DNA of 57,744 nucleotides from IMG/VR virus record IMGVR_UViG_3300020247_000249; one strand, 5' to 3'. A program made the translations under genes and the position numbers. The notes under the pieces were generated by a model. It was not told where the DNA came from. It did no database searches and worked only from the letters and a program-made list of their open reading frames with translations. Numbering within the stretch: the first letter of the stretch is position 1; the number at the start of each line of letters is the position of its first letter. This DNA comes from an uncultured virus (IMG/VR IMGVR_UViG_3300020247_000249). Taxonomy: Duplodnaviria; Heunggongvirae; Uroviricota; Caudoviricetes. This document shows, piece after piece, positions 4,347 to 46,932 of the stretch.

Positions 4347-5171
4347 ATGTTTAGTTTTAGAAAGAAAAAATCTTGGTTACGTTTCTACTCATTAGATCCT
4401 AATGTAGCAGAATTGTATCCTATTGAGCCTGCTGGTAAGGCAGAACGTGATTTCAACGATGTTGGAACACGTAGAGTAAGACCTGAAAGCGGCAATCAAC
4501 TTTCTAAAAACTGTCCTGGCATTAAGCCGCTTATGAAGTCAGGATATATTATGAGAGCTCCTGCAGATTTTACAATTGCTACAGGTCCTAATGTAGACGG
4601 TGGCATTGGTTGGGAAGTTCCTTTTCAGTTTGTAAAACCTAGCACAGGAAATTACAATATAAAAGGTTGGGAATATTATATCAACTGGCATGCACCTTGG
4701 CAAACTGAGCCACTTATTCCTCATGACACTGATAACACAAACAAGCCTTACTTAAATTCAGCAGTTAAAGTTGAAACACCTTGGCGTGTAAAAGCAAGTG
4801 AAGATATGTTGCTGTTACAAATGCCAGTGTCCTATAACAACGAAACAAGATTTACGGCTGCATATGGCATAGTTGATCCTATGTACATGCATGCCATTCC
4901 AATTCAATTATTTTGGCATATACTAGAAGGTAAAACATTAGTTAAAGCAGGTACTCCACTTGCACAGTTTGTACCTATTAGTAGAAGTATGCTACACGAT
5001 CATGAGATTATTATTGACGAAGCAGGTGATCTCGAAAAAGATATTGAAGATGCATTTACATATGCTAATCATCATAAGTTTGCAAACACAGACAATGTTG
5101 TTGCAAAGGTAAAACGTATTAAACAACTGTTTGATCGTTTTCGTAAAAAAAATCCTAATGCTAAAATTTAG
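4347..5171 (+). CDS. Hypothetical protein (possibly dUTPase-like beta-clip, DUF6065-like)
   Basis: CPGIK...GYI..AP, TPWRV, GIVD, AGTPLAQFVP motifs. Confidence 0.7.
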   Translation: MFSFRKKKSWLRFYSLDPNVAELYPIEPAGKAERDFNDVGTRRVRPESGNQLSKNCPGIKPLMKSGYIMRAPADFTIATGPNVDGGIGWEVPFQFVKPSTGNYNIKGWEYYINWHAPWQTEPLIPHDTDNTNKPYLNSAVKVETPWRVKASEDMLLLQMPVSYNNETRFTAAYGIVDPMYMHAIPIQLFWHILEGKTLVKAGTPLAQFVPISRSMLHDHEIIIDEAGDLEKDIEDAFTYANHHKFANTDNVVAKVKRIKQLFDRFRKKNPNAKI

Positions 5172-37954: not shown

Positions 37955-38004
37955 GTTTGATTAATAACGCTAAATACAGTATAATCTTGTAAAGAGAGGA
38001 TACT

Positions 38005-38385
38005 ATGCGCGATCTATTGAAAAAACTAGAGTCAATTGAAACAGTAACAGAGATCAGTGATCTCGAAGAACAAACATTTAATGGTGAAGAATTCTTTGAA
38101 TACTATGGCTATTTGCCATGGCACGAAGATGTTCCCGTTGAAGAAGCAGAATACCAAGGACGTAAAGTATCGCTAGGTAAACCAATGCGTGGCGATGTTA
38201 AGAAATTCAAAGTATATGTAAGAGATCCCAAAACTAAAAATATTAAAAAAGTAAACTTTGGTGATCCTAATATGCGTATTAAAAAGTCTAACCCAAAGAG
38301 ACGTAAAAGTTTCCGTGCTAGACACAATTGTTCAAACCCAGGACCACGTACTAAAGCACGTTACTGGTCATGTAGGAAATGGTAA
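38005..38385 (+). CDS. Probable internal head protein: acidic propeptide plus basic module (DUF6321-like)
   Basis: TAAATA at 37971; VEE-AEYQGRKV...SFRARHNC...ARYWSCRKW. Confidence 0.8.
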   Translation: MRDLLKKLESIETVTEISDLEEQTFNGEEFFEYYGYLPWHEDVPVEEAEYQGRKVSLGKPMRGDVKKFKVYVRDPKTKNIKKVNFGDPNMRIKKSNPKRRKSFRARHNCSNPGPRTKARYWSCRKW

Positions 38386-38386
38386 T

Positions 38387-38725
38387 ATGTTATTAAAAGA
38401 ACTTTTCTCTCCTATCGGTGCCCCTAATGATAAAGAAGATGATATTAACTGGCACGACGATTTGAAAGTGTTTATGGACAATGACAATGAAGTTATGTCT
38501 ACTGTAATGTTTCCAGCAATTAAGAAACATGAAAAATACAGAGGACATCCAAATGCTTATAAAATTTATATAAAGCCTGTGGAAAAATGTTGTGATATGT
38601 ATTGCAACAAATTTGGTGTCGATAAACCAGAAGAAAAGTTTTCTAGAGAAAACATGATTTCATTAGCAAGACAAATTGCTAAAGAGCAAGAGATGCATTT
38701 AGAGAACGGCGACTATGAGAATTAA
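38387..38725 (+). CDS. Probable head-associated protein
   Basis: TAATATG coupling; N-terminus MLLKELF. Confidence 0.75.
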   Translation: MLLKELFSPIGAPNDKEDDINWHDDLKVFMDNDNEVMSTVMFPAIKKHEKYRGHPNAYKIYIKPVEKCCDMYCNKFGVDKPEEKFSRENMISLARQIAKEQEMHLENGDYEN

Positions 38726-39335
38726 TGAAATATTTTTAACTGAAGATGATGCCGATAAGCATATGACTTTTTGCTTTGGCAGATTCAATCCACCTACACT
38801 TGGACATAAAGAAGTTTTTAAGTCAATGAAGAAAGCTGGTGGCGAATTAGAAATATATACTAGCCAAACACAAGACGCAAAAAAGAATCCTTTAGACTAT
38901 TCAACCAAAGTAGACTTTATTAGAAAAGTACATCCTGACTTTGCAAACAACGTTGTAGAAAACACAGACTTGAATACACTACCTAAAATTTGTACTTCAT
39001 TACATGAAAGAGGTTACAATCATATAACATTTGTTGCAGGAAGTGATCGTCTTGAGATGATGTCTAAACTTATAAAAGATTATAACGGTGTCGAAGGAAA
39101 AGGACACGGTTACTATAAATTTGAAACAATGAATTTTGAATCTAGCGGACAACGTGAAGATGGTTCAGATGGCGTAGAAGGTATTAGTGGAACAATGGCA
39201 AGAGCCGATGCTGCTAACGGAGACATAAACAAATTTGCACAACATACCGGTGCAGGAGAACATGCAGATGAATTATACGCTGCGGTTAGAAAAGGTATGG
39301 GGATCAATGATAACACAGGGGAAAATGATGAATAA
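38715..39335 (+). CDS. Cytidyltransferase/NMNAT-like nucleotidyltransferase with capsid-targeting-like N-terminus
   Basis: FGRFNPPTLGH, KNPL, VAGSDR, ISGT.AR; MRINEIFLTE. Confidence 0.82.
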   Translation: MRINEIFLTEDDADKHMTFCFGRFNPPTLGHKEVFKSMKKAGGELEIYTSQTQDAKKNPLDYSTKVDFIRKVHPDFANNVVENTDLNTLPKICTSLHERGYNHITFVAGSDRLEMMSKLIKDYNGVEGKGHGYYKFETMNFESSGQREDGSDGVEGISGTMARADAANGDINKFAQHTGAGEHADELYAAVRKGMGINDNTGENDE

Positions 39336-39831
39336 AGAATCAGCATATGATCATCCACATGGAGCGAAGCTATCTCGTATCGGCAGAGTTCTTATGGACA
39401 AGGCTGTCACTACTAAAGACGATGCATTATCATTAGTGCTTTCAAGAGTAGGTGACGAACTAACACGCTATGGTGCGCCAGGCGGAGCAAGAAATATTGA
39501 AGAACTAGTTAAACGTTGTAAACTGCCACAAGAAAAAATTATGAAATTAATGAAGTGGGCAGAAAGTCAAAAGGACGTTTTAGACAAAGTTAAAAATCCA
39601 CCTGATAATCCAGACATGGATAAACCAGGACACGAGGAAGAAGAATCATTTTGTCCAGAATGTGCTAAGCCAAGATTCACAGCAATGCCAGAGCATATTC
39701 AACAACAGTACGAAAGCATCAACGAAGAAAAGCAAAAAGGCGTTGACGGCAAAGTATGTTGGAAAGGATATAAAAGAATGGGCACCAAGAAGAAGGGTGG
39801 CAAAACAGTAGACAACTGCGTTAAGATGTAA
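39328..39831 (+). CDS. Modular probable head protein
   Basis: Contains FCPEC and the C-terminal INE-EKQKGVDGKVCWKGYKRMGTKKKGGKTVDNCVKM module. Confidence 0.75.
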   Translation: MNKESAYDHPHGAKLSRIGRVLMDKAVTTKDDALSLVLSRVGDELTRYGAPGGARNIEELVKRCKLPQEKIMKLMKWAESQKDVLDKVKNPPDNPDMDKPGHEEEESFCPECAKPRFTAMPEHIQQQYESINEEKQKGVDGKVCWKGYKRMGTKKKGGKTVDNCVKM

Positions 39832-40031
39832 TGTCTGAATTAGACGATATTGTTAGACTTGCCGGTATAAATGAATTCAAAGGTTACACACCTTGGGAAG
39901 GCAGCAATATTAGTATTAGTGGTAATGAAAAGGGAGAACTAATGAAGAAGCATAAGATTGAACCAGGCACCCCTGAATGGTTTAAGTTATGGTTTTCATT
40001 ACCTAAGTTCACAGGTGAGAAACCGATATGA
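39831..40031 (+). CDS. Small probable head protein
   Basis: IVRLAGINE; IEPGTPEWFKLWF. Confidence 0.75.
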   Translation: MSELDDIVRLAGINEFKGYTPWEGSNISISGNEKGELMKKHKIEPGTPEWFKLWFSLPKFTGEKPI

Positions 40032-41122
40032 GATCATTTGAATTTGTATCTGAAAAAGCAGTAAGCAAAAAGCAACAGCAGTTCTTTGGTATAGTAAGAG
40101 CTATGCAAAAGGGCGACATGAAAAAAGGCGGCGAAGCCGGTGAAGTTGCTAAAGATATGAAAGTTTCTGATGTAAAGGACTTTGCTAAAACAAAGCATAA
40201 AGGATTGCCTACAAAGAAAACATCTGAAGAAGCAGCAGGTGTTGGTATCGTAACAAAACAAAATGCTACCGCAGACGTTCCAGTTGGCGGAGAGTATATG
40301 AATGTTAAGAAACTGTTTCCTAAAAACAAAAAGAAAAAAACTAAAGAAGACAGTGTACAAGAACTTGTTGTAAAACAGCAACGTCCTAAAATTGATGTTA
40401 TTAATAACATAGCAATGAGAAAAGATAATAATCCTTTTCCGTTAAGTTATAAAGATACAGGCGGTGCAAGTTCAGGCGGCATGGTATACATTACTCCAGA
40501 AAATGCTAAAAAGTTTATACAGTTTTATGATAGACGTGCAGAAGACGAACAGCAACTAATGCTACAGGCACTAAAAAGTGTTTCAGGCTTAAAAAACTTG
40601 TTTAACAATCTTGGACTTGAAGTTGCAAAAATTGAAGCAACAAAAGAAGAAAATTACGAAAGAGAAGATTTACCCCAAATTAAAAATAAGCACCTAGAAC
40701 ATATTAGACATACTGTAGAGACAGTAGAGATCGGTGACATTATTCCAGTACAAAATGAATTTGTTCTTGAAAATTTTAAAAAGCAAATAGATAAAATTTC
40801 AGAAGGTTCATATGCTCCTATTATTGTAGATTGCAATAACAAAATTATCAACGGACATCATAGATATGCTGCATTACAAATGCTAGGTGAAACTAATGTA
40901 AACGTTGCTAAATTGTTTTTAACTGTAAATGCAGTAGTTGAAAACTTTGCTGACGGTAAAAAGAAAGGCAAAAGCAGACCAGGACGAGTAAAGAAGTCTG
41001 GTGCTAGTTGTAACGGATCAGTTACAAGCCTACGTAAAAAAGCAAAGAATGCAGGTGGTGAAAAAGGTAGAATGTATCACTGGTGTGCTAATATGAAATC
41101 AGGTCGTAAAAAGGGTAAATAG
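40028..41122 (+). CDS. Modular probable head polyprotein containing a ParB/Srx-like domain
   Basis: MRSFEFVSE N-terminus; modules bounded by xxE; PIIVD...INGHHRYAA ParB motif. Confidence 0.8.
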   Translation: MRSFEFVSEKAVSKKQQQFFGIVRAMQKGDMKKGGEAGEVAKDMKVSDVKDFAKTKHKGLPTKKTSEEAAGVGIVTKQNATADVPVGGEYMNVKKLFPKNKKKKTKEDSVQELVVKQQRPKIDVINNIAMRKDNNPFPLSYKDTGGASSGGMVYITPENAKKFIQFYDRRAEDEQQLMLQALKSVSGLKNLFNNLGLEVAKIEATKEENYEREDLPQIKNKHLEHIRHTVETVEIGDIIPVQNEFVLENFKKQIDKISEGSYAPIIVDCNNKIINGHHRYAALQMLGETNVNVAKLFLTVNAVVENFADGKKKGKSRPGRVKKSGASCNGSVTSLRKKAKNAGGEKGRMYHWCANMKSGRKKGK

Positions 41123-41126
41123 TAAT

Positions 41127-41417
41127 ATGAAACTTAATGAATTATTCAATGCCATTGAGCAAAATAAAAAGAGAATGGAATCTGCTACAGCAGGTGCTAC
41201 AGCTTCTGGCAATATAGCAACAGTTGTAAGTCCACAACTTGCTATAGGAAAAGGCTCAATTGGTAATAAAAGTTATACAGGTTCTCCAGGAAAAAGCGGT
41301 ACAAGTGCGCCTAAACCGCCTAAAACTGTGCAGAAGAAGAAAAAAGACGGCACAGCAGTAAATGCACTAGACATGAAAGGAAACATTTTTGGTGGCGGCG
41401 CTGCGCTCAAAAGATAA
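41127..41417 (+). CDS. Small probable head protein
   Basis: TAAATA-N5-ATG; MKLNELF...RME-SATAGATASGNIA. Confidence 0.75.
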   Translation: MKLNELFNAIEQNKKRMESATAGATASGNIATVVSPQLAIGKGSIGNKSYTGSPGKSGTSAPKPPKTVQKKKKDGTAVNALDMKGNIFGGGAALKR

Positions 41418-41425
41418 ATATTAGT

Positions 41426-41716
41426 ATGGAAAAGAAGCCCGATCATGAAGCCACAATGGCAAAAGCAGAATTAGCAAACGTTGCTAAGAACGCCATTGCG
41501 CTATATAAAATGATTGAGCCAGGCGACGAATTACAAGGTTGGATTAGCAGTTATATTACTCTATCTAACGATTACTTAGATTCTGTTCGTGAAAGAATGG
41601 AGTATGAGATTCAGGCAGATAATGCTATGAATAAAGGAGAACGAGAATACGAAGCTGGGACTTGCGAAAGTATTCGAGATAAACTAACAACAGAGTGGGA
41701 GCTCTTAAAAGGATAG
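41426..41716 (+). CDS. Hypothetical late protein
   Basis: TAAATA-N5-ATG; DHEATMAKAEL...LQGWISSYIT. Confidence 0.75.
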   Translation: MEKKPDHEATMAKAELANVAKNAIALYKMIEPGDELQGWISSYITLSNDYLDSVRERMEYEIQADNAMNKGEREYEAGTCESIRDKLTTEWELLKG

Positions 41717-41720
41717 CATC

Positions 41721-43139
41721 ATGGACTTTAGAAATTTATTAAACAAACTTCCAAGAGAGGAAGCAAAAAACGAAAACACATTTGACGGTACGCTAGAAAG
41801 TATAGCAAGAGCCGCTAACGTTGATTATAAACCACAAGCAGTTGTATTTGAAGGTTATACAGATGACGAAGTTAGAGAACTTTGCCATTCAAAAGACCAC
41901 GATTGTGCAACAACTGTTAACCATCCATTATATGGTAAAGGTAAACCAGTTTACGAAAGTCATGCTATTCCAGATGACTACGGTAATGTTGAGTGGTACG
42001 ATGTACAATTTAAACACGGTGTAGAAAAGAAAGTTCCAGCAGCAGACATGGAAATTGTTACACTAGAAGAACACGGTGCTGCTAAACCTAAAAAGAAAAA
42101 AGCCAAAGAAGATGCTAAAGTTGAAAAAGATTCTAAGTCCAAAGAAGTAAAAGAATCAGATGACGAAGTTGCAAAAACTGTAAACGAAGAGCTATCCGAA
42201 AAAGACAAAGATACAGAATTTGCAGCATGGCTTAAGAAAACTCACAACAAAGATGTTGAAGGTTTGAAAGGCGATGAGTACGTTAAAGTATCTAAAGAGT
42301 TCCAATCATCTAAAAAGAAAGAAGAGTCATTTAGAGCTAAGTTCGATGACATGGTTGCTGAAGCAGGTAAGCCAGACTTTTTAGACTTAGACAAAGACGG
42401 CAACAAGAAAGAGCCAATGAAGAAAGCTGCTAAAGATGCTAAAGGCGGCAAGAAGTCAGGCAAAAAAGAAATGTCAGATAAGCAAAAGAAATTCTTCGGC
42501 AAAAAGAAAGAGTCAGTTGAAGAAGCAGCAGACGTAATTACAGCAGAAAAAATGCCTAAGAAGAAAGACATTTTAATGATGTGCAGCAAAGGTATGAAAG
42601 TAAATGAAATTTGCAAGAAGTATCCAAACTGTGATCAAAAGAAATTAAAAGAGATGTGCGAAGCATGTATGTCTGAAGTTAAAGCAAAGAAAACTAACGA
42701 GTCAGTTAACGAAGCAAAAGACGGCAAGATGCCATCCAAAGCACACATAAAGAAAATGTGTAAAGACGGTAAGTCTAAAGCAGAAATTTGCAAAATGCAT
42801 CCAGACTGTGATCAAAAGAAATTAAAAGACATGATCGACGATTGCAAAAAAGACATGAAAGAATCAGTTAACGAGTCAGTTGAAGTTATTAAAGATCCTT
42901 CAAACATGTCATTTGTTGAAATGCTAAAACTTGTAAAAGAAAGCGGTGGACAACAGCAAATTGATCCAGTTGACGAAACACTTTGGAACTGGGCTCAAAG
43001 AGTTGCTACTTCAAAAGTTGAAGAGTCAAACAAAGCAGAAATTTTTGCAGGATTGATTTACGAGCGTAACGGTGGACGTTTTGAAATGTATGACGTTATG
43101 GACGAAGACGGACTTACTGAGTCAAAAAAAAAGGACTGA
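41721..43139 (+). CDS. Large Lys/Glu-rich modular probable head protein (0-frame product)
   Basis: Many VxE/ESVNE junctions; KPDFLDLDKDGNKKE EF-hand-like loop; duplicated 4-Cys module. Confidence 0.85.
   Translation: MDFRNLLNKLPREEAKNENTFDGTLESIARAANVDYKPQAVVFEGYTDDEVRELCHSKDHDCATTVNHPLYGKGKPVYESHAIPDDYGNVEWYDVQFKHGVEKKVPAADMEIVTLEEHGAAKPKKKKAKEDAKVEKDSKSKEVKESDDEVAKTVNEELSEKDKDTEFAAWLKKTHNKDVEGLKGDEYVKVSKEFQSSKKKEESFRAKFDDMVAEAGKPDFLDLDKDGNKKEPMKKAAKDAKGGKKSGKKEMSDKQKKFFGKKKESVEEAADVITAEKMPKKKDILMMCSKGMKVNEICKKYPNCDQKKLKEMCEACMSEVKAKKTNESVNEAKDGKMPSKAHIKKMCKDGKSKAEICKMHPDCDQKKLKDMIDDCKKDMKESVNESVEVIKDPSNMSFVEMLKLVKESGGQQQIDPVDETLWNWAQRVATSKVEESNKAEIFAGLIYERNGGRFEMYDVMDEDGLTESKKKD
42552..42890 (+). 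repeat. Intragenic duplication of a Cys-rich module (177-nt period)
   Basis: ACTGTGATCAAAAGAAATTAAAAGA at 42628 and 42805; KMP....I..MC..G....EICK..P.CDQKKLK.M...C occurs twice. Confidence 0.85.
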
Positions 43140-43166
43140 GTGAAGCAAAAGCAGGCTATTGCTCAG
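43124..43166 (+). other. Candidate -1 frameshift / slippage signal (A9G run plus downstream stem-loop)
   Basis: TCA AAA AAA AAG; hairpin CTGAGTGAAGC/GCTATTGCTCAG at 43136-43166. Confidence 0.65.
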
Positions 43167-43249
43167 ATGAGTGTTGCGGTGCAGATGTAAAAGCAGCAGA
43201 CTGTAATTGCAAACCGACTTGTAAGCATTGTGATTGTAATGCAAAATAA
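43124..43249 (+). CDS. -1-frame C-terminal extension encoding a metallothionein-like peptide
   Basis: KKKGLSEAKAGYCSDECCGADVKAADCNCKPTCKHCDCNAK*; no start codon of its own (in-frame TGA at 43118). Confidence 0.7.
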   Translation, partial: KKKGLSEAKAGYCSDECCGADVKAADCNCKPTCKHCDCNAK

Positions 43250-43277
43250 GTAAAAAGAATTAACCAAAATTAAACTA

Positions 43278-43308
43278 AAGCCAGTTATTAACTTGACTGG
43301 CTTTTTTT
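43278..43308 (+). terminator. Rho-independent terminator closing the head-protein cluster
   Basis: AAGCCAGTTA-loop-TGACTGGCTT followed by a T-tract. Confidence 0.85.
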
Positions 43309-43321
43309 ATGACTATATAAT
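43293..43321 (+). promoter_or_regulatory. Sigma70 promoter whose -35 lies in the terminator stem
   Basis: TTGACT-N17-TATAAT. Confidence 0.75.
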
Positions 43322-43346: not shown

Positions 43347-43625
43347 ATGTCAAAAATGTACGGGCCAGAAGAAAAGGCTAAACTAGAGAGATTGATCAAA
43401 GAAGGTTCAAATGTTCTACGTGAAGTAGAGGATCTTAATGAAGGTCTTAAGGATACTGTAAAAGCAGTAGCAGAAGAACTACAGATCAAACCATCAGTAA
43501 TTAATAAAGCAATTAAAATTGCTCACAAAGACGATTGGGCTAAACACTTAGAAGAGTGGGAAGACATCGAAGGCATTCTTGGAATCACAAATAATTTACC
43601 GTCCGGTAATACCGAGAGTGAATAA
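43347..43625 (+). CDS. dsDNA-binding protein, T4 DsbA/GapR-like
   Basis: KLERLIKEG...VEDLNEGLKDTVKAVAEELQIKPSVINKAIKIA; SD AGGAG. Confidence 0.7.
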   Translation: MSKMYGPEEKAKLERLIKEGSNVLREVEDLNEGLKDTVKAVAEELQIKPSVINKAIKIAHKDDWAKHLEEWEDIEGILGITNNLPSGNTESE

Positions 43626-44262: not shown

Positions 44263-46932
44263 ATGAGTTACGTAGACGCTTTCTATGATAGAGGGCAAGA
44301 CACCATCAACGTTGTTGAACGTGACGATAAAGGCAAACGTCATTATCGAGAATACAATCCCAGACATATTTTTTATTACGAGGATCCTAGAGGAAAATAT
44401 AAATCCATCTATGGCAAACCATTATCAAGGGTAACTTGTAAAAACATCAAAGAACTTCGTAAAGAACTTGCTATTCACAGCAACAAAAAACTTTATGAGA
44501 GCGACATCAATCCAATTTATAGAATGCTTGAGGACAACTATCTCAATCAAGACGCACCTAAACTAAACGTTGCGTTTTTTGATATTGAGGTTGACTTTGA
44601 TCCTGAGCGAGGTTATGCATCTCCTGAAGATGCTTTTATGCCTATTACTTCAATTGCTGTATACATGCAGTGGATGGAAACAATGGTATGTCTTGCTATT
44701 CCGCCTAAGACACTTTCAATGGAAGAAGCAAAGAAAACTATTGAAGGCATTGACAATGTTGTGCTGTTTGAAAAAGAAAGCGAAATGCTAGATGCATTTT
44801 TAGATCTTATACAAGATGCTGATGTACTAAGTGGCTGGAACAGCGAAGGATTTGATATTCCGTACACAGTTAATAGAATTACAAAAACGTTAAGCAAAGA
44901 AGATACAAAAAGATTATGTCTTTGGAATCAGTATCCTAAAAAACGTGAGTATGAAAAGTTTGGTAAAACATCTGTTACATATGATTTAATTGGTAGAGTG
45001 CATGTTGACTCACTAGAACTTTATAGAAAATATAACTACGAAGAACGTCATACATATCGACTTGATGCTATTGGCGAACTAGAAGTTGGCGAAACAAAAA
45101 CAGTTTATGAAGGTTCTCTTGATTCACTTTACAACAACGACTTTAGAACATTTATTGAATATAACATTCAAGATACTGCACTACTTGACAAACTAGATAA
45201 GAAACTTAAATTTATTGATCTTGCTAATACTGTTGCACATGAGAATACAGTTCTTATTCAAACTACTATGGGTGCTGTTGCTGTTACAGAACAAGGTATT
45301 ATTAACGAAGCACACAGACGTGGGTTTATTGTTCCTAACAGAGTAAGACGTGAACCAGGTAGTGAGCCTGCGGCAGGTGCTTATGTTGCATATCCTAAGA
45401 AAGGTATTCATGAATGGATTGGTAGTGTTGACTTGAATTCACTGTATCCATCTGTTATTAGAGCTTTGAATATGGGTCCTGAAACAATTGTAGGACAACT
45501 AAGACAAGACGGAACAAAAGCACGTATTGAAGGCGAAATGGCAAAAGGTAAAAGTTTTGCAAATGCTTGGGAAGGACAATTTGGTTCTGTTGAGTTTGAC
45601 TCTGTTATGGAACGTGAAGTAGGTAGGCAGATTACTATCGACTGGGAAGACAGCGACAAAAGCGATACAATTAGTGCGGCACAAGTATATGATTTAATCT
45701 TTGAAAGCAATCAGCCTTGGATGCTAAGTGCTAATGGTACCATCTTTACATATGAAAAAGAAGGTGTTATTCCTGGACTGCTAAAACGTTGGTATAAAGA
45801 ACGTAAAGAAATGCAGGCAAAGATGCGTGATGCAATCAAAGCAAAGAATCCTATCGAAGAAGAGTACTGGGCAAAAAGACAACTTGTTAAAAAGATTCTA
45901 CTTAACAGTTTGTATGGTGCTATTCTTAATCCAGGTTGTAGATTCTTTGATAACCGTATTGGACAGTCAACTACACTTACAGGTAGACAGATTGTTAAGC
46001 ATATGAGTGCAAAGGTTAATGAGATTATTACAGGCGAGTACAACCATACAGGTAAGTCAATTGTGTATGGTGATACTGATTCATCTTACTTTAGTGCATA
46101 CAGTACGTTAAAAGAAGAGATTGATAAAGGAAACATTCCTTGGGATAAAGATAGTGTTATGGCATTGTATGATCAAATCTGCGATGAAGCAAATACTACG
46201 TTTCCTAAGTTTATGGCTGAAACTTTCCATTGTCCTAAAAGCAGATCAGATGTTATTGCGGCAGCAAGAGAGATTGTTGCAAGTAAAGGTCTGTTTATTA
46301 CAAAGAAAAGATATGCAGTTCTGTACTATGACGTAGAAGGTAAGCGTGTAGATACTGAAGGAAAGCCAGGTAAGATCAAAGCAATGGGTTTAGACTTGAA
46401 ACGTTCTGATACTCCTGTTGTTATTCAAGACTTTTTGAGTAATGTATTAGAAATGGTACTAGCAGGTAAAGAACAACAAGACGTACTAGATTACATTACA
46501 GAATTTAGAACTGAATTTAAAACAAGACCTGGTTGGGAGAAAGGTAGTCCGAAACGTGCAAACAAGATTACTGAGTACGGCAACAAAGAAAAGAAACAAG
46601 GTAAAGCAAATATGCCTGGACATGTTCGTGCAAGTATTAATTGGAATACCTTAAAGCGTATGGAAGATGACAAATATTCCATAACTATTACAGATGGTGC
46701 GAAAGTAATTGTTTGTAAAGTTAAAGATAACCCTATGGGATTCACTAGTGTTGCGTATCCTGTAGATGAATTACGTTTGCCAGAATGGTTTAAAAAACTG
46801 CCTTTCAACGATGCTGAAATGGAAAATTCAGTAATTGATGAAAAGCTAGGTAACCTTATTGGTGTGTTAGAGTGGGATATCAGCTCTACAAGAAGTGATA
46901 ACAACTTTAACAAATTGTTTGATTTTGATTAA
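44263..46932 (+). CDS. DNA polymerase family B (gp43-like)
   Basis: FFDIE exonuclease motif, GWNSEGFDIPY, DLNSLYPS, KILLNSLYG, YGDTDS, KKRYA. Confidence 0.97.
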   Translation: MSYVDAFYDRGQDTINVVERDDKGKRHYREYNPRHIFYYEDPRGKYKSIYGKPLSRVTCKNIKELRKELAIHSNKKLYESDINPIYRMLEDNYLNQDAPKLNVAFFDIEVDFDPERGYASPEDAFMPITSIAVYMQWMETMVCLAIPPKTLSMEEAKKTIEGIDNVVLFEKESEMLDAFLDLIQDADVLSGWNSEGFDIPYTVNRITKTLSKEDTKRLCLWNQYPKKREYEKFGKTSVTYDLIGRVHVDSLELYRKYNYEERHTYRLDAIGELEVGETKTVYEGSLDSLYNNDFRTFIEYNIQDTALLDKLDKKLKFIDLANTVAHENTVLIQTTMGAVAVTEQGIINEAHRRGFIVPNRVRREPGSEPAAGAYVAYPKKGIHEWIGSVDLNSLYPSVIRALNMGPETIVGQLRQDGTKARIEGEMAKGKSFANAWEGQFGSVEFDSVMEREVGRQITIDWEDSDKSDTISAAQVYDLIFESNQPWMLSANGTIFTYEKEGVIPGLLKRWYKERKEMQAKMRDAIKAKNPIEEEYWAKRQLVKKILLNSLYGAILNPGCRFFDNRIGQSTTLTGRQIVKHMSAKVNEIITGEYNHTGKSIVYGDTDSSYFSAYSTLKEEIDKGNIPWDKDSVMALYDQICDEANTTFPKFMAETFHCPKSRSDVIAAAREIVASKGLFITKKRYAVLYYDVEGKRVDTEGKPGKIKAMGLDLKRSDTPVVIQDFLSNVLEMVLAGKEQQDVLDYITEFRTEFKTRPGWEKGSPKRANKITEYGNKEKKQGKANMPGHVRASINWNTLKRMEDDKYSITITDGAKVIVCKVKDNPMGFTSVAYPVDELRLPEWFKKLPFNDAEMENSVIDEKLGNLIGVLEWDISSTRSDNNFNKLFDFD

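What the first reader, a model, noticed from the sequence alone, without database searches (positions are those of the whole stretch)
43118..43308. Hidden metallothionein-like peptide appended to a head protein by a -1 frameshift
Seen: the 472-aa ORF ends TCA AAA AAA AAG GAC TGA (A9 at 43124-43132). The -1 frame continues GLSE-AKAGYCSDECCGADVKAADCNCKPTCKHCDCNAK* (8 Cys and 1 His; CC, CxC and CxxCxC motifs) to 43249. That frame has no start codon and is closed upstream by TGA at 43118, so only a shift can reach it. An 11-bp stem-loop (43136-43166) starts 5 nt after the A_AAA_AAA heptamer. The extension begins with an LSE site like the other modules, and the terminator lies after its stop. Established: A_AAA_AAG plus a 3' hairpin drives -1 frameshifting (E. 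coli dnaX), and A9 runs cause transcriptional slippage. Inference: recoding sets a sub-stoichiometric dose of a metal-chelating peptide that is cut free inside the capsid. I know of no described equivalent. A homopolymer assembly error or phase variation is the alternative.
Basis: partly seen in the sequence, partly recalled or inferred. Interest (0 to 1): 0.9.

Follow-up and report, generated by a model that had tools for sequence, protein, structure and literature searches.

The report
Conserved A9 recoding site adds cysteine-rich tail
In an uncultured giant ocean phage, an unchanging run of nine A's at the end of a gene most likely lets some of the protein continue in the next reading frame into a small cysteine-rich, probably metal-binding tail; this is a new use of a known recoding trick.

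Summary
ORF 41721-43139 ends TCA AAA AAA AAG GAC TGA, and the -1 frame runs on to 43249 as GLSE plus a 34-residue peptide with 8 Cys.

The A9 run is not an assembly error. All 22 related IMG/VR loci that carry the K-run have exactly A9, a 0-frame stop two codons later, and an open -1 frame. That frame encodes at least four different Cys-rich tails, with dN/dS 0.18-0.52. In 73 of 121 family proteins a Cys-rich tail is fused in frame with no A run. An in-frame relative differs from the A9 loci by one 23-nt indel.

A second gene family carries A9 in the same phase in 40 of 40 loci, followed by a 109-155 aa module in the -1 frame.

Its closest relative loses it through the TGA-to-TAA change.

My reading: programmed recoding is real (about 0.85). 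Its main route is probably transcriptional slippage on A9 (0.55) rather than -1 ribosomal frameshifting at A_AAA_AAG (0.3).

"Metallothionein-like" rests on composition only; Pfam and PDB gave no match. "Head protein cut free in the capsid" is plausible but untested.

The scan has reported this gene before on other DNA (e1-5808134), with the same conclusion.

The parts
41721..43139 (+). Gene of the 472-aa modular, Lys/Glu-rich protein (P0001). This is the 0-frame product, ending ...GLTESKKKD.
   Evidence: The family has 2198 database relatives with E <= 0.001 among 8000 scored candidates. An AF2 model of the in-frame homologue P0025 is mostly disordered, mean pLDDT 45.8.
43122..43144 (+). 23-nt recoding cassette TCA-A8-GGACTGAGTGAA. 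With one extra A it reads S K K K G L S E.
   Evidence: It is exactly the 23-column indel between the in-frame relative L019 and four A9 loci. The same cassette sequence as in L023 appears in the second-family loci L104 and L115.
43124..43132 (+). A9 run, the slip site. A_AAA_AAG in 0-frame phase lies at 43127-43133.
   Evidence: A9 is present in 22 of 22 IMG/VR loci of this family that carry the K-run, in 10 of 10 family matches in metagenome contigs (at least four are the same records as IMG/VR loci), and in 40 of 40 loci of a second family. It is the only run of 9 or more in the 57.7-kb window.
43137..43139 (+). 0-frame stop (TGA), one codon after AAG.
   Evidence: It is TGA or TAA in all A9 loci. 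The change is synonymous in the -1 frame, CTG to CTA, both Leu.
43118..43120 (+). TGA that closes the -1 frame upstream of the run.
43133..43249 (+). -1 frame extension: GLSE junction motif, a 34-aa peptide with 8 Cys and 1 His, then TAA at 43247-43249.
   Evidence: Nine distinct DNA variants among 23 A9 loci are all open in this frame. Where dS is not saturated and above about 0.1, dN/dS is 0.18-0.52. Cys columns are kept in the seven variants of the window's and L009's tail types; the L008-type tail has a different Cys pattern and does not align column for column. Cys-rich tails are fused in frame in 73 of 121 family proteins.
43136..43166 (+). Probably incidental.
   Evidence: It is the minimum-energy structure. 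It is lost in L002 and absent at that place in the other variants, whose z-scores range from -2.2 to +0.3.
43277..43311 (+). Intrinsic-terminator-like hairpin and T run that end the operon after the extension.
   Evidence: The sequence is conserved in relatives downstream of their tails.

Best explanation
The gene makes two proteins from one DNA sequence.

Most transcripts carry A9 and give the 472-aa product that ends ...GLTESKKKD.

On the nine-A template the host RNA polymerase sometimes lets the nascent RNA slip and adds one A (or four). Ordinary translation of those mRNAs reads ...GLTE-SKKK-GLSE and then a 34-residue peptide with 8 Cys and 1 His, stopping at 43247-43249.

Transcripts with other numbers of A's end within a few codons, because both unproductive frames hold nearby stops.

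The result is a fixed minority of molecules with a Cys-rich tail. The tail most likely holds metal ions in thiolate clusters.

What is shown: the conserved A9, the stop, and an open -1 frame under selection; in-frame versions of the tail in relatives; and the same device in a second gene family.

What is inferred: that the slip is transcriptional rather than ribosomal, the share of shifted product, metal binding, and any later cleavage at the L-x-E junction.

My odds: recoding of some kind about 0.85, with transcriptional slippage as the main route 0.55.
For: 1. A9 is invariant. It is found in 22 of 22 IMG/VR loci with the K-run, from 21 metagenome data sets, and in 10 of 10 family matches in metagenome contigs. 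No A7, A8, A10 or A11 version was found, although the search pattern allowed them.

2. The -1 frame is coding. Nine distinct tail DNAs are all open. The 8 Cys columns are kept across seven of them; the exception is the L008-type tail, which has a different Cys pattern. Pairs with dS above about 0.1 and not saturated give dN/dS 0.18-0.52.

3. The tail belongs to this protein. In 73 of 121 family proteins a Cys-rich tail follows G/S-L-T/N-E in frame with no K-run. L019-L021 carry the L008-type tail in frame, and they differ from the A9 loci by one 23-nt indel.

4. There is no ATG, GTG or TTG in the extension frame.

5. A second family (P0101-like) has the same phase (xxA AAA AAA AAG), a stop 0-1 codon later and a 109-155 aa ORF in the -1 frame in 40 of 40 loci. 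These span 9 nucleotide contexts.

6. Four points favour slippage over ribosomal frameshifting:
- No conserved 3' structure.
- The base before the A8, which is the wobble base of TCA or GGA, is A in every context, although the codon itself and the codons upstream vary. So nine A's are kept, not only the heptamer.
- Runs of 9 A or T are the stated length for bacterial transcriptional slippage (PMC5009743, passages read).
- The tssM1 A11 site gives 20-25% shifted product without RNA signals (PMC4256274, passages read).

7. The terminator lies after the tail, not after the 0-frame stop.
Against: - There is no direct evidence of A10 transcripts or of the fused protein.
- Contigs from RNA libraries read A9. 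X20 record 7 bridges the run. X15 record 3 reaches only 4 nt past it. Contigs drop minority variants and may derive from DNA, so this is neutral at best.
- The run is always in the phase that also gives a perfect A_AAA_AAG heptamer. That would be required for ribosomal frameshifting and not for slippage, although common descent of the cassette could explain it.
- The evidence that nine A's are needed, rather than the heptamer plus a conserved Lys, rests on one extra conserved base.
- Four of 35 K-run protein clusters imply other run lengths: P0005 and P0019 read as A10, P0012 as A7, and P0026 as A8. These lengths are inferred from the protein sequences only. So some DNA-level or assembly-level length variation exists.
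- The host and its RNA polymerase are unknown.
Confidence: 0.55

Rival explanations
1. Ribosomal -1 frameshifting. Ribosomes slip back one base on A_AAA_AAG (43127-43133), perhaps helped by the stop codon one codon downstream, and continue into the Cys-rich frame. The mRNA is unchanged.
For: - A perfect A_AAA_AAG heptamer lies in 0-frame phase in every locus of both families.
- A_AAA_AAG is the most shift-prone heptamer tested in E. coli and is the dnaX site (PMC5009743, passages read).
- A 0-frame stop always lies 0-1 codon after AAG.
- RNA-library contigs read A9.
Against: - There is no conserved downstream structure. The window's hairpin starts only 2 nt after the heptamer and is lost in L002 and in the other variants.
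- The small upstream hairpin that the fold predicts is absent in 3 of 9 variants.
- I saw no Shine-Dalgarno-like element upstream by eye. This was not formally scanned.
- Two A's beyond the heptamer are also invariant.
- The efficiency of the heptamer depends on the host's tRNA-Lys set, which is unknown. The 98-kb relative contig encodes no tRNA.
Confidence: 0.3
2. DNA-level phase variation. The A run changes length during replication, so a subpopulation of genomes (A10 or A7) encodes the fusion directly. A9 genomes make only the short protein.
For: Protein clusters that imply A10 (P0005, P0019), A7 (P0012) and A8 (P0026) exist in public assemblies, 4 of 35 K-run clusters. P0012 carries the same tail as the A9 loci L009, L017 and L018.
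Against: - A9 is the assembled state in every DNA locus examined: 22 of 22, 10 of 10 and 40 of 40.
- Replication slippage is expected to be far rarer than transcriptional slippage (established knowledge, not measured here). Purifying selection on the tail would then act on a tiny fraction of virions.
- The off-length variants are single clusters and could be assembly errors or could come from RNA.
Confidence: 0.07
3. There is no recoding. The tail is a decaying remnant cut off by a frameshift mutation, or the A9 is a systematic homopolymer sequencing error for A10.
For: Homopolymers are error-prone on some platforms. In the window alone the open frame and the Cys content are not beyond chance.
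Against: - The same length is found in assemblies from 21 IMG/VR data sets and in further metagenome contigs.
- The tails have diverged into at least four types, yet none has a stop and Cys columns are kept within the alignable types, with dN/dS below 1.
- The 0-frame stop itself is maintained as TGA or TAA.
- The same arrangement holds in 40 of 40 loci of another family.
Confidence: 0.03
4. The Cys-rich peptide is a separate small gene started at a non-canonical codon, for example CTG at 43136, behind the purine-rich AAAGGA.
For: AAAGGA at 43130-43135 resembles a ribosome-binding site.
Against: - The frame holds no ATG, GTG or TTG.
- The first codons differ among variants and families (GGA CTG/CTA, GGC TTA, GTA ACA, GAC TTA), with no shared start.
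- The spacing to CTG is zero.
- In-frame fusions in relatives show that the tail is part of the upstream protein.
Confidence: 0.02

Closest known systems
Thermus thermophilus dnaX (tau and gamma made by transcriptional slippage on a run of A's)
   Same: A homopolymer run gives a mixed mRNA population. Nearby stops lie in the unproductive frames. Two products share one N-terminal body, in a set ratio (PMC5009743, passages read; the same review gives 9 A or T as the run length for bacterial slippage).
   Different: In dnaX the long product is the 0-frame one and slippage shortens it. Here slippage lengthens the protein. The gene, the organism and the cargo (a Cys-rich tail) are unrelated. Slippage here has not been shown experimentally.
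Citrobacter rodentium tssM1 (A11 run before a premature stop)
   Same: An A run just before a stop restores a C-terminal domain in 20-25% of products. There is no stimulatory RNA structure. Both forms are needed (PMC4256274, abstract and passages read).
   Different: The run there is A11, not A9. It is a bacterial secretion gene, and the site is rare among tssM genes. Here the site is fixed across two gene families of uncultured phages and sits in a discrete 23-nt cassette.
E. coli dnaX -1 ribosomal frameshift site
   Same: The same A_AAA_AAG heptamer in phase (PMC5009743, passages read).
   Different: dnaX depends on a 3' stem-loop and an upstream Shine-Dalgarno-like element (recalled). No conserved structure is found here, and the shift here extends the protein rather than truncating it.
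C-terminal extensions of phage structural proteins made by programmed frameshifting (lambda gpG/gpGT tail chaperone; T7 capsid 10A/10B, recalled)
   Same: A minority product with the same body and an extra C-terminal part is made at a fixed ratio (gpG/GT: PMC5009743, passage read; T7: recalled).
   Different: Those use ribosomal shift sites other than a 9-A run, and they add folded structural domains. Here the added part is a 34-residue Cys-rich peptide, and the carrier protein has not been shown to be structural.
Metallothioneins
   Same: Short length, about a quarter Cys, and CC, CxC and CxxC spacing. The in-frame relatives (DCNCGPECACKGECGDDCNCGPDC type) look even more like them.
   Different: No Pfam metallothionein family and no PDB chain matches. 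The peptide is the tail of a large protein rather than a free small protein. Metal binding is untested.

Membership tests
Programmed transcriptional slippage sites | Homopolymer A or T run of about 9 or more inside or at the end of a coding sequence | tested here: met
   A9 at 43124-43132. The length criterion comes from PMC5009743 (passage read).
Programmed transcriptional slippage sites | The run is conserved among diverged homologues although synonymous alternatives exist | tested here: met
   22 of 22, 10 of 10 and 40 of 40 loci have A9. No AAG replaces AAA, and the wobble base of the preceding TCA or GGA codon is always A.
Programmed transcriptional slippage sites | The frame reached after the slip encodes a conserved, selected sequence | tested here: met
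   dN/dS is 0.18-0.52, with no stops in 9 variants. In-frame versions exist in relatives.
Programmed transcriptional slippage sites | The mRNA population is heterogeneous in run length while the DNA is uniform | tested here: inconclusive
   Only assembled contigs of RNA libraries were available. They read A9, and contigs hide minority variants.
dnaX-type -1 programmed ribosomal frameshift cassette | X_XXY_YYZ heptamer in 0-frame phase | tested here: met
   A_AAA_AAG at 43127-43133, in the same phase in all loci.
dnaX-type -1 programmed ribosomal frameshift cassette | Conserved 3' stimulatory stem-loop or pseudoknot about 5-9 nt downstream | tested here: not met
   The window hairpin starts 2 nt after the heptamer. 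It is lost in L002 and has no counterpart in the other variants.
dnaX-type -1 programmed ribosomal frameshift cassette | Upstream Shine-Dalgarno-like stimulator | not tested
   I saw none by eye in ...GACGGACTTACTGAGTC. No formal scan was run, and the host's anti-SD sequence is unknown.
Metallothionein | Short Cys-rich sequence with CxC, CC or CxxC motifs | tested here: met
   8 Cys in the 34 residues after GLSE. Related tails are listed.
Metallothionein | Sequence membership in a described metallothionein family | tested here: not met
   Pfam at E up to 1 gave no family for the tail. PDB sequence searches at E up to 10 gave nothing, or only thrombomodulin EGF at E 0.29.
Metallothionein | Binds Zn, Cu or Cd in thiolate clusters | not testable with these tools
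   Needs the purified peptide and metal titration.
T4-type capsid-packaged internal proteins processed by the prohead protease | The phage encodes a T4-type prohead protease | tested here: met
   A Peptidase_S77 match (84 bits, E 4.6e-25) lies beside the portal and major head protein genes in the 98-kb contig. That contig is 100% identical to the window over this gene.
T4-type capsid-packaged internal proteins processed by the prohead protease | Leu/Ile-x-Glu cleavage motifs at module junctions (the specificity is recalled, not from a call) | tested here: inconclusive
   G/S-L-T/N/S-E directly precedes every Cys tail, and it is duplicated around the K-run. An L-x-E-S motif at about residues 24-30 aligns across the family. 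The presence of a motif is not proof of cleavage.
T4-type capsid-packaged internal proteins processed by the prohead protease | Protein present in proheads or virions, with an N-terminal targeting sequence | not testable with these tools
   - No cultured phage has the full protein.
- The N-terminus MDFR..L..K is nearly invariant, but its role is unknown.
- No T4-type late promoter motif lies near the operon.
- A sigma-70-like promoter lies at 37957-37985.

The most novel reading that the evidence does not exclude
A portable 23-nt A9 slippage cassette is a family-wide dosing device of uncultured giant ocean phages. It sits at junctions of modular, capsid-loaded polyproteins and sets what fraction of molecules receives an optional end module. 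In this gene the module is a metallothionein-like peptide. The T4-type prohead protease frees it at the adjacent L-x-E site, so each virion carries a small, fixed load of metal-thiolate peptide, with its Zn, Cu or Cd, into the next host. Phage particles would then be specific carriers of trace metals in the sea.
Probability: 0.15. Interest if true: 0.85.

Novelty: new variant of a known kind. Interest (0 to 1): 0.62.

Why it matters
Recoding: this is a natural comparative experiment. The same tail occurs fused in frame, behind an A9 cassette, or not at all in close relatives, and the same phase of A9 serves two gene families. Such a fixed, portable slip cassette in phages is a ready test case for telling transcriptional from ribosomal shifting, and for measuring how the product ratio is set.

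Annotation: gene callers truncate these proteins and miss the downstream modules. In the second family these are 109-155 aa domains that were never found fused in the protein database (weak evidence).

Marine virology: metallothionein-like tails on abundant uncultured jumbo-phage proteins would be a new link between viruses and trace metals. My searches for metallothionein with bacteriophage or phage terms found no paper on such a thing.

Tried and rejected
- RNA evidence. No raw-read runs were offered. Four RNA-library runs were laid as contigs. X20 record 7 bridges the run with A9. X15 record 3 stops 4 nt after it. X16 and X19 do not reach it. This cannot show or exclude minority A10 transcripts, and DNA may be present in such libraries.
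- Whole genome: none is held for this window. Metagenome loci cannot be reached by handle.
- Megablast of the gene against cultured phages gave no match. tblastn found only the 60-residue N-terminal module in cyanophages. The second family's downstream module has no match in cultured phages, no convincing PHROG match (the only hit is E 0.0036), and no longer fused form in the protein database.
- The structure prediction of the in-frame homologue P0025 had mean pLDDT 45.8. That is too low for a fold search, so none was run.
- The ESM Atlas search returned only viral hypothetical clusters.
- The hairpin as stimulator is rejected on conservation.
- The small hairpin just upstream of the run (GACTT..GAGTC, -3.7 kcal/mol) is absent in 3 of 9 variants.
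- tRNA genes: none in the window or in the 98-kb relative contig.
- The T4 late-promoter motif TATAAATA (recalled consensus) gave 2 matches in the window where 6.3 are expected, and none is near the operon.
- Window-only statistics do not set the feature apart from chance.
- Literature searches for metallothionein with bacteriophage or phage terms found nothing relevant (listings only).
Full report
**What is in the window**

ORF 41721-43139 (+, 472 aa, P0001) ends GGA CTT ACT GAG TCA AAA AAA AAG GAC TGA. The run of nine A's is at 43124-43132. The -1 frame is closed by TGA at 43118-43120. From there it reads VKKKGLSEAKAGYCSDECCGADVKAADCNCKPTCKHCDCNAK, ending at TAA 43247-43249. It has 8 Cys, 1 His and no ATG, GTG or TTG codon.

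A terminator-like hairpin (43277-43304 plus a T run) follows the extension. It overlaps a sigma-70-like promoter (43293-43321) for the next gene.

**Genomic setting**

The neighbouring genes are a DsbA-like regulator (43347-43625) and a family-B DNA polymerase (44263-46932). The best cultured matches of the polymerase are jumbo phages: Sinorhizobium phage Phosso at 50% identity, Agrobacterium phage Atu_ph07 at 46%, and 350-380 kb Escherichia phages at 44%.

The rest of the window carries tail-fibre-like, clamp-loader, PhoH, MazG, peptide deformylase and queuosine-pathway genes.

A 98-kb IMG/VR contig is 100% identical to the window over this gene. CheckV rates it 28% complete. It holds portal, T4-type prohead protease and major head protein genes. 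One relative lies on a 341-kb contig (L161).

So this is an uncultured marine T4-related jumbo phage. No whole genome is held for the window.

**Is the window alone convincing?**

No. An open -1 frame past a stop is common here: 20 of 60 ORFs of at least 120 aa have 36 or more open codons. I take most of these to be the next gene, because the longest run for hundreds of codons, but I did not check each. Cys-rich stop-free 38-aa windows with at least 8 Cys occur 118 times among 26,263 over six frames.

One run of A9 or longer is seen where a first-order model expects 3.5. The run-length counts fall sharply (A6 54, A7 5, A8 1, A9 1), and this is the longest homopolymer in the window.

**Comparative evidence for the shift site**

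The search for related loci returned 78 loci. Twenty-nine contain the conserved C-terminal domain (...ERNGGRFEMYDV...). They divide as follows:
- 22 carry the K-run. All 22 have exactly TC-A9-GG, a 0-frame stop (TGA or TAA) two codons later and an open -1 frame. They come from 21 data sets.
- L019-L021 have no A run and carry a Cys-rich tail in frame.
- L024-L027 have no tail.

A pattern scan that allowed A7 to A11 found 22 family matches in IMG/VR, all A9, plus 2 unrelated chance matches. In metagenome contigs it found 10 family matches, all A9.

**Comparative evidence for the tail**

Among 23 A9 sequences (window included) there are 9 distinct tail DNAs and at least four peptide types:
- GLSEAKAGYCSDECCG...
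- GLSE[GA]KMCSDDCCG...
- GLSEEKMCPDACCGQPVSKCTCGPDCEHCDCYELNKK
- GLSEASDATCGCGSDCEHCGGDH...CSCCDNKIYKR

All are open. The Cys columns are kept across the seven variants of the first three types. The L008-type tail has a different Cys pattern and does not align column for column. Pairwise Nei-Gojobori values give dN/dS of 0.18-0.52 wherever dS is above about 0.1 and not saturated. The TGA/TAA alternation of the 0-frame stop is a synonymous CTG/CTA change in the -1 frame.

Among the 121 proteins examined (query plus the 120 listed hits):
- 73 have a Cys-rich tail fused in frame directly after G/S-L-T/N-E, with no K-run. Most are of the type DCNCGPECACKGECGDDCNCGPDC.
- 32 stop after the K-run. 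One of them (P0026) reads as an A8 version.
- 3 have a K-run with the tail in frame. P0005 and P0019 read as A10, and P0012 as A7.
- 6 have short tails.
- 7 lack the C-terminal motif.

The run lengths for P0005, P0012, P0019 and P0026 are inferred from their protein sequences. I did not see their DNA.

An alignment of the in-frame L019 with four A9 loci shows a single 23-column gap that matches TCA-A8-GGMCTRAGTGAA. The cassette is therefore a discrete 23-nt element. It needs one more base to be eight codons (S K K K G L S E).

**The same device in a second family**

The metagenome scan also hit unrelated-looking genes ending ...RRLGLLLAD-SKKKD/A-stop, whose -1 frame continues GLTEAESFDNLAQILHLK....

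Following this up with P0101, 40 of 40 loci with the ...KRES...SRRLA/G motif have A9 in the phase xxA AAA AAA AAG. Each has a 0-frame stop 0-1 codon later and a -1 ORF of 109-155 aa. They span 9 nucleotide contexts and 14 protein variants.

The codon before the run is TCA or GGA, and its third base is always A. The downstream module has no match in cultured phages or as a longer fused protein.

In three 67-98 kb contigs of the window's own lineage, the cassette is the only A9G in the record. The in-frame relative has none. A 148-kb contig of another phage has four A9G sites:
- One is the second-family cassette.
- One is an in-frame SKKK linker in a modular protein that also holds an internal Cys-rich module.
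- One lies in a 499-aa ORF, with both frames open for a short stretch beyond the run.
- One is not in a long ORF.

**Mechanism**

Both candidate mechanisms give the same protein. It begins 2 nt after A_AAA_AAG. The single TGA-to-TAA change in L002 abolishes it, and the other variants have no counterpart. No conserved RNA structure was found upstream either.

The extra conserved A's beyond the heptamer, the published 9-nt threshold for bacterial slippage (PMC5009743, passages) and the tssM1 precedent all favour transcriptional slippage. In tssM1 an A11 run gives 20-25% shifted product with no RNA signals (PMC4256274, abstract and passages).

The invariant phase with a perfect A_AAA_AAG, the adjacent stop and the A9 reading of RNA-library contigs keep ribosomal frameshifting alive.

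My odds:

| Reading | Probability |
|---|---|
| Transcriptional slippage | 0.55 |
| Ribosomal frameshifting | 0.30 |
| DNA-level phase variation | 0.07 |
| No recoding or sequencing error | 0.03 |
| Separate initiation | 0.02 |

**What the tail and the carrier are**

The tail matches no Pfam family at E up to 1 and no PDB chain at E up to 10. "Metallothionein-like" is therefore a description of composition and Cys spacing, not a family assignment. Metal binding is an inference.

The carrier is modular and Lys/Glu-rich. It contains:
- a nearly invariant N-terminus, MDFR..L..K;
- a CHSKDHDC...WYDVQFKHG module, which stands alone beside a cytidylyltransferase gene in cyanophage P-SSM7;
- a DxDxDG-like motif;
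- one or two Cys-containing DUF433-like modules;
- a conserved C-terminal domain.

AF2 on the in-frame homologue P0025 gives mean pLDDT 45.8 and finds it mostly disordered.

**The head-protein claim**

For the claim:
- The lineage has a T4-type prohead protease.
- The junction motif L-T/N/S-E fits the Leu/Ile-x-Glu specificity that I recall for that protease, and it is duplicated on both sides of the K-run.
- An L-x-E-S motif near residue 26 aligns across the family.
- ORF 41127-41417, two genes upstream, shares ESATAGAT..GN.AT with residues 41-56 of the lineage's major head protein (12 of 16 identical, E 4e-5).

Against or neutral:
- There is no homology to any known virion protein.
- No T4-type late promoter motif lies near the operon.
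- A sigma-70-like promoter lies upstream.
- There are no proteomic data.

I rate "packaged and cut at L-x-E" at roughly one in three.

**Earlier notes of this scan**

The scan has seen this before:
- e1-5808134 reports the same gene on another genome (110 of 110 shared words) with the same conclusion.
- e1-5319859 reports another A9 junction and named the tssM1 paper, which I then read.
- e1-6098952 proposes capsid-addressed modular polyproteins.

I reached the A9, tail and second-family results from my own calls before opening these notes. Their "late gene" and "virion protein" labels are not supported by anything I could test.

**Verdict**

It is a new variant of a known kind of device, with an unusual cargo. 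The hairpin and the capsid story are not established.

Noticed in passing
L104, L105, L115, L119, L122, L147, L148 (metagenome contigs); L168-L172 and L197-L232 (IMG/VR): A second gene family (P0101-like, ending ...KRES...SRRLAETLS..SKKKA-stop) carries A9 in the same phase. Its -1 frame continues for 109-155 aa (GLISEAS...LIRVLRNLISSAD...). All 40 of 40 IMG/VR loci have A9. The module has no match in cultured phages, no convincing PHROG match and no fused database protein.
   Followed up: partly
L247 (G007:C1:33042-36051, minus strand, run at locus position 1501): In another large phage contig an A9 SKKK linker lies in frame inside a modular protein, directly after an internal Cys-rich module (DENCACGGNCTPNCNCHPDC). 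Here a slip would truncate rather than extend. A9 linkers at module junctions may be a general feature of these proteins.
   Followed up: no
window 41127-41417 (+): Residues 18-33 of this 96-aa ORF (ESATAGATASGNIATV) match residues 41-56 of the lineage's major head protein (P0122) at 12 of 16 positions, E 4e-5. The match directly follows an L-N-E in the head protein. It may be a shared protease-site context.
   Followed up: partly
window 38005-43139 (+): Six consecutive genes begin with similar short amphipathic N-termini (MRDLLKKLESIE, MRINEIFLTED, MSELDDIVRLAGINEF, MRSFEFVSEKA, MKLNELFNAIEQ, MDFRNLLNKL). One has a ParB-like nuclease domain and one is a cytidylyltransferase. A sigma-70-like promoter lies at 37957-37985.
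   Followed up: no
window 41880-42075 (residues 54-118 of P0001); L243 (Prochlorococcus phage P-SSM7 155884-156285): The CHSKDHDC...WYDVQFKHG module occurs as a stand-alone 133-aa gene next to a cytidylyltransferase gene in cyanomyophages. In other family members (P0046) it sits in the middle of the protein, so the modules shuffle.
   Followed up: partly
proteins P0005, P0019, P0012, P0026: Rare database versions of the gene read as if the run were A10, A7 or A8 (tail in frame, or ending SKKRTK). Whether they are real DNA variants, assembly errors or RNA-derived assemblies was not determined.
   Followed up: no
whole window: A-run lengths fall sharply after six (A6 54, A7 5, A8 1, A9 1; T6 10, T7 1). 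This is consistent with avoidance of slippery runs except at the cassette. The other long run, A8, is at 5145-5152.
   Followed up: no
window 43277-43321: The operon terminator hairpin overlaps a near-consensus sigma-70-like promoter (TTGACT-17-TATAAT) for the DsbA-like gene. The block is conserved downstream of the tails in relatives.
   Followed up: no
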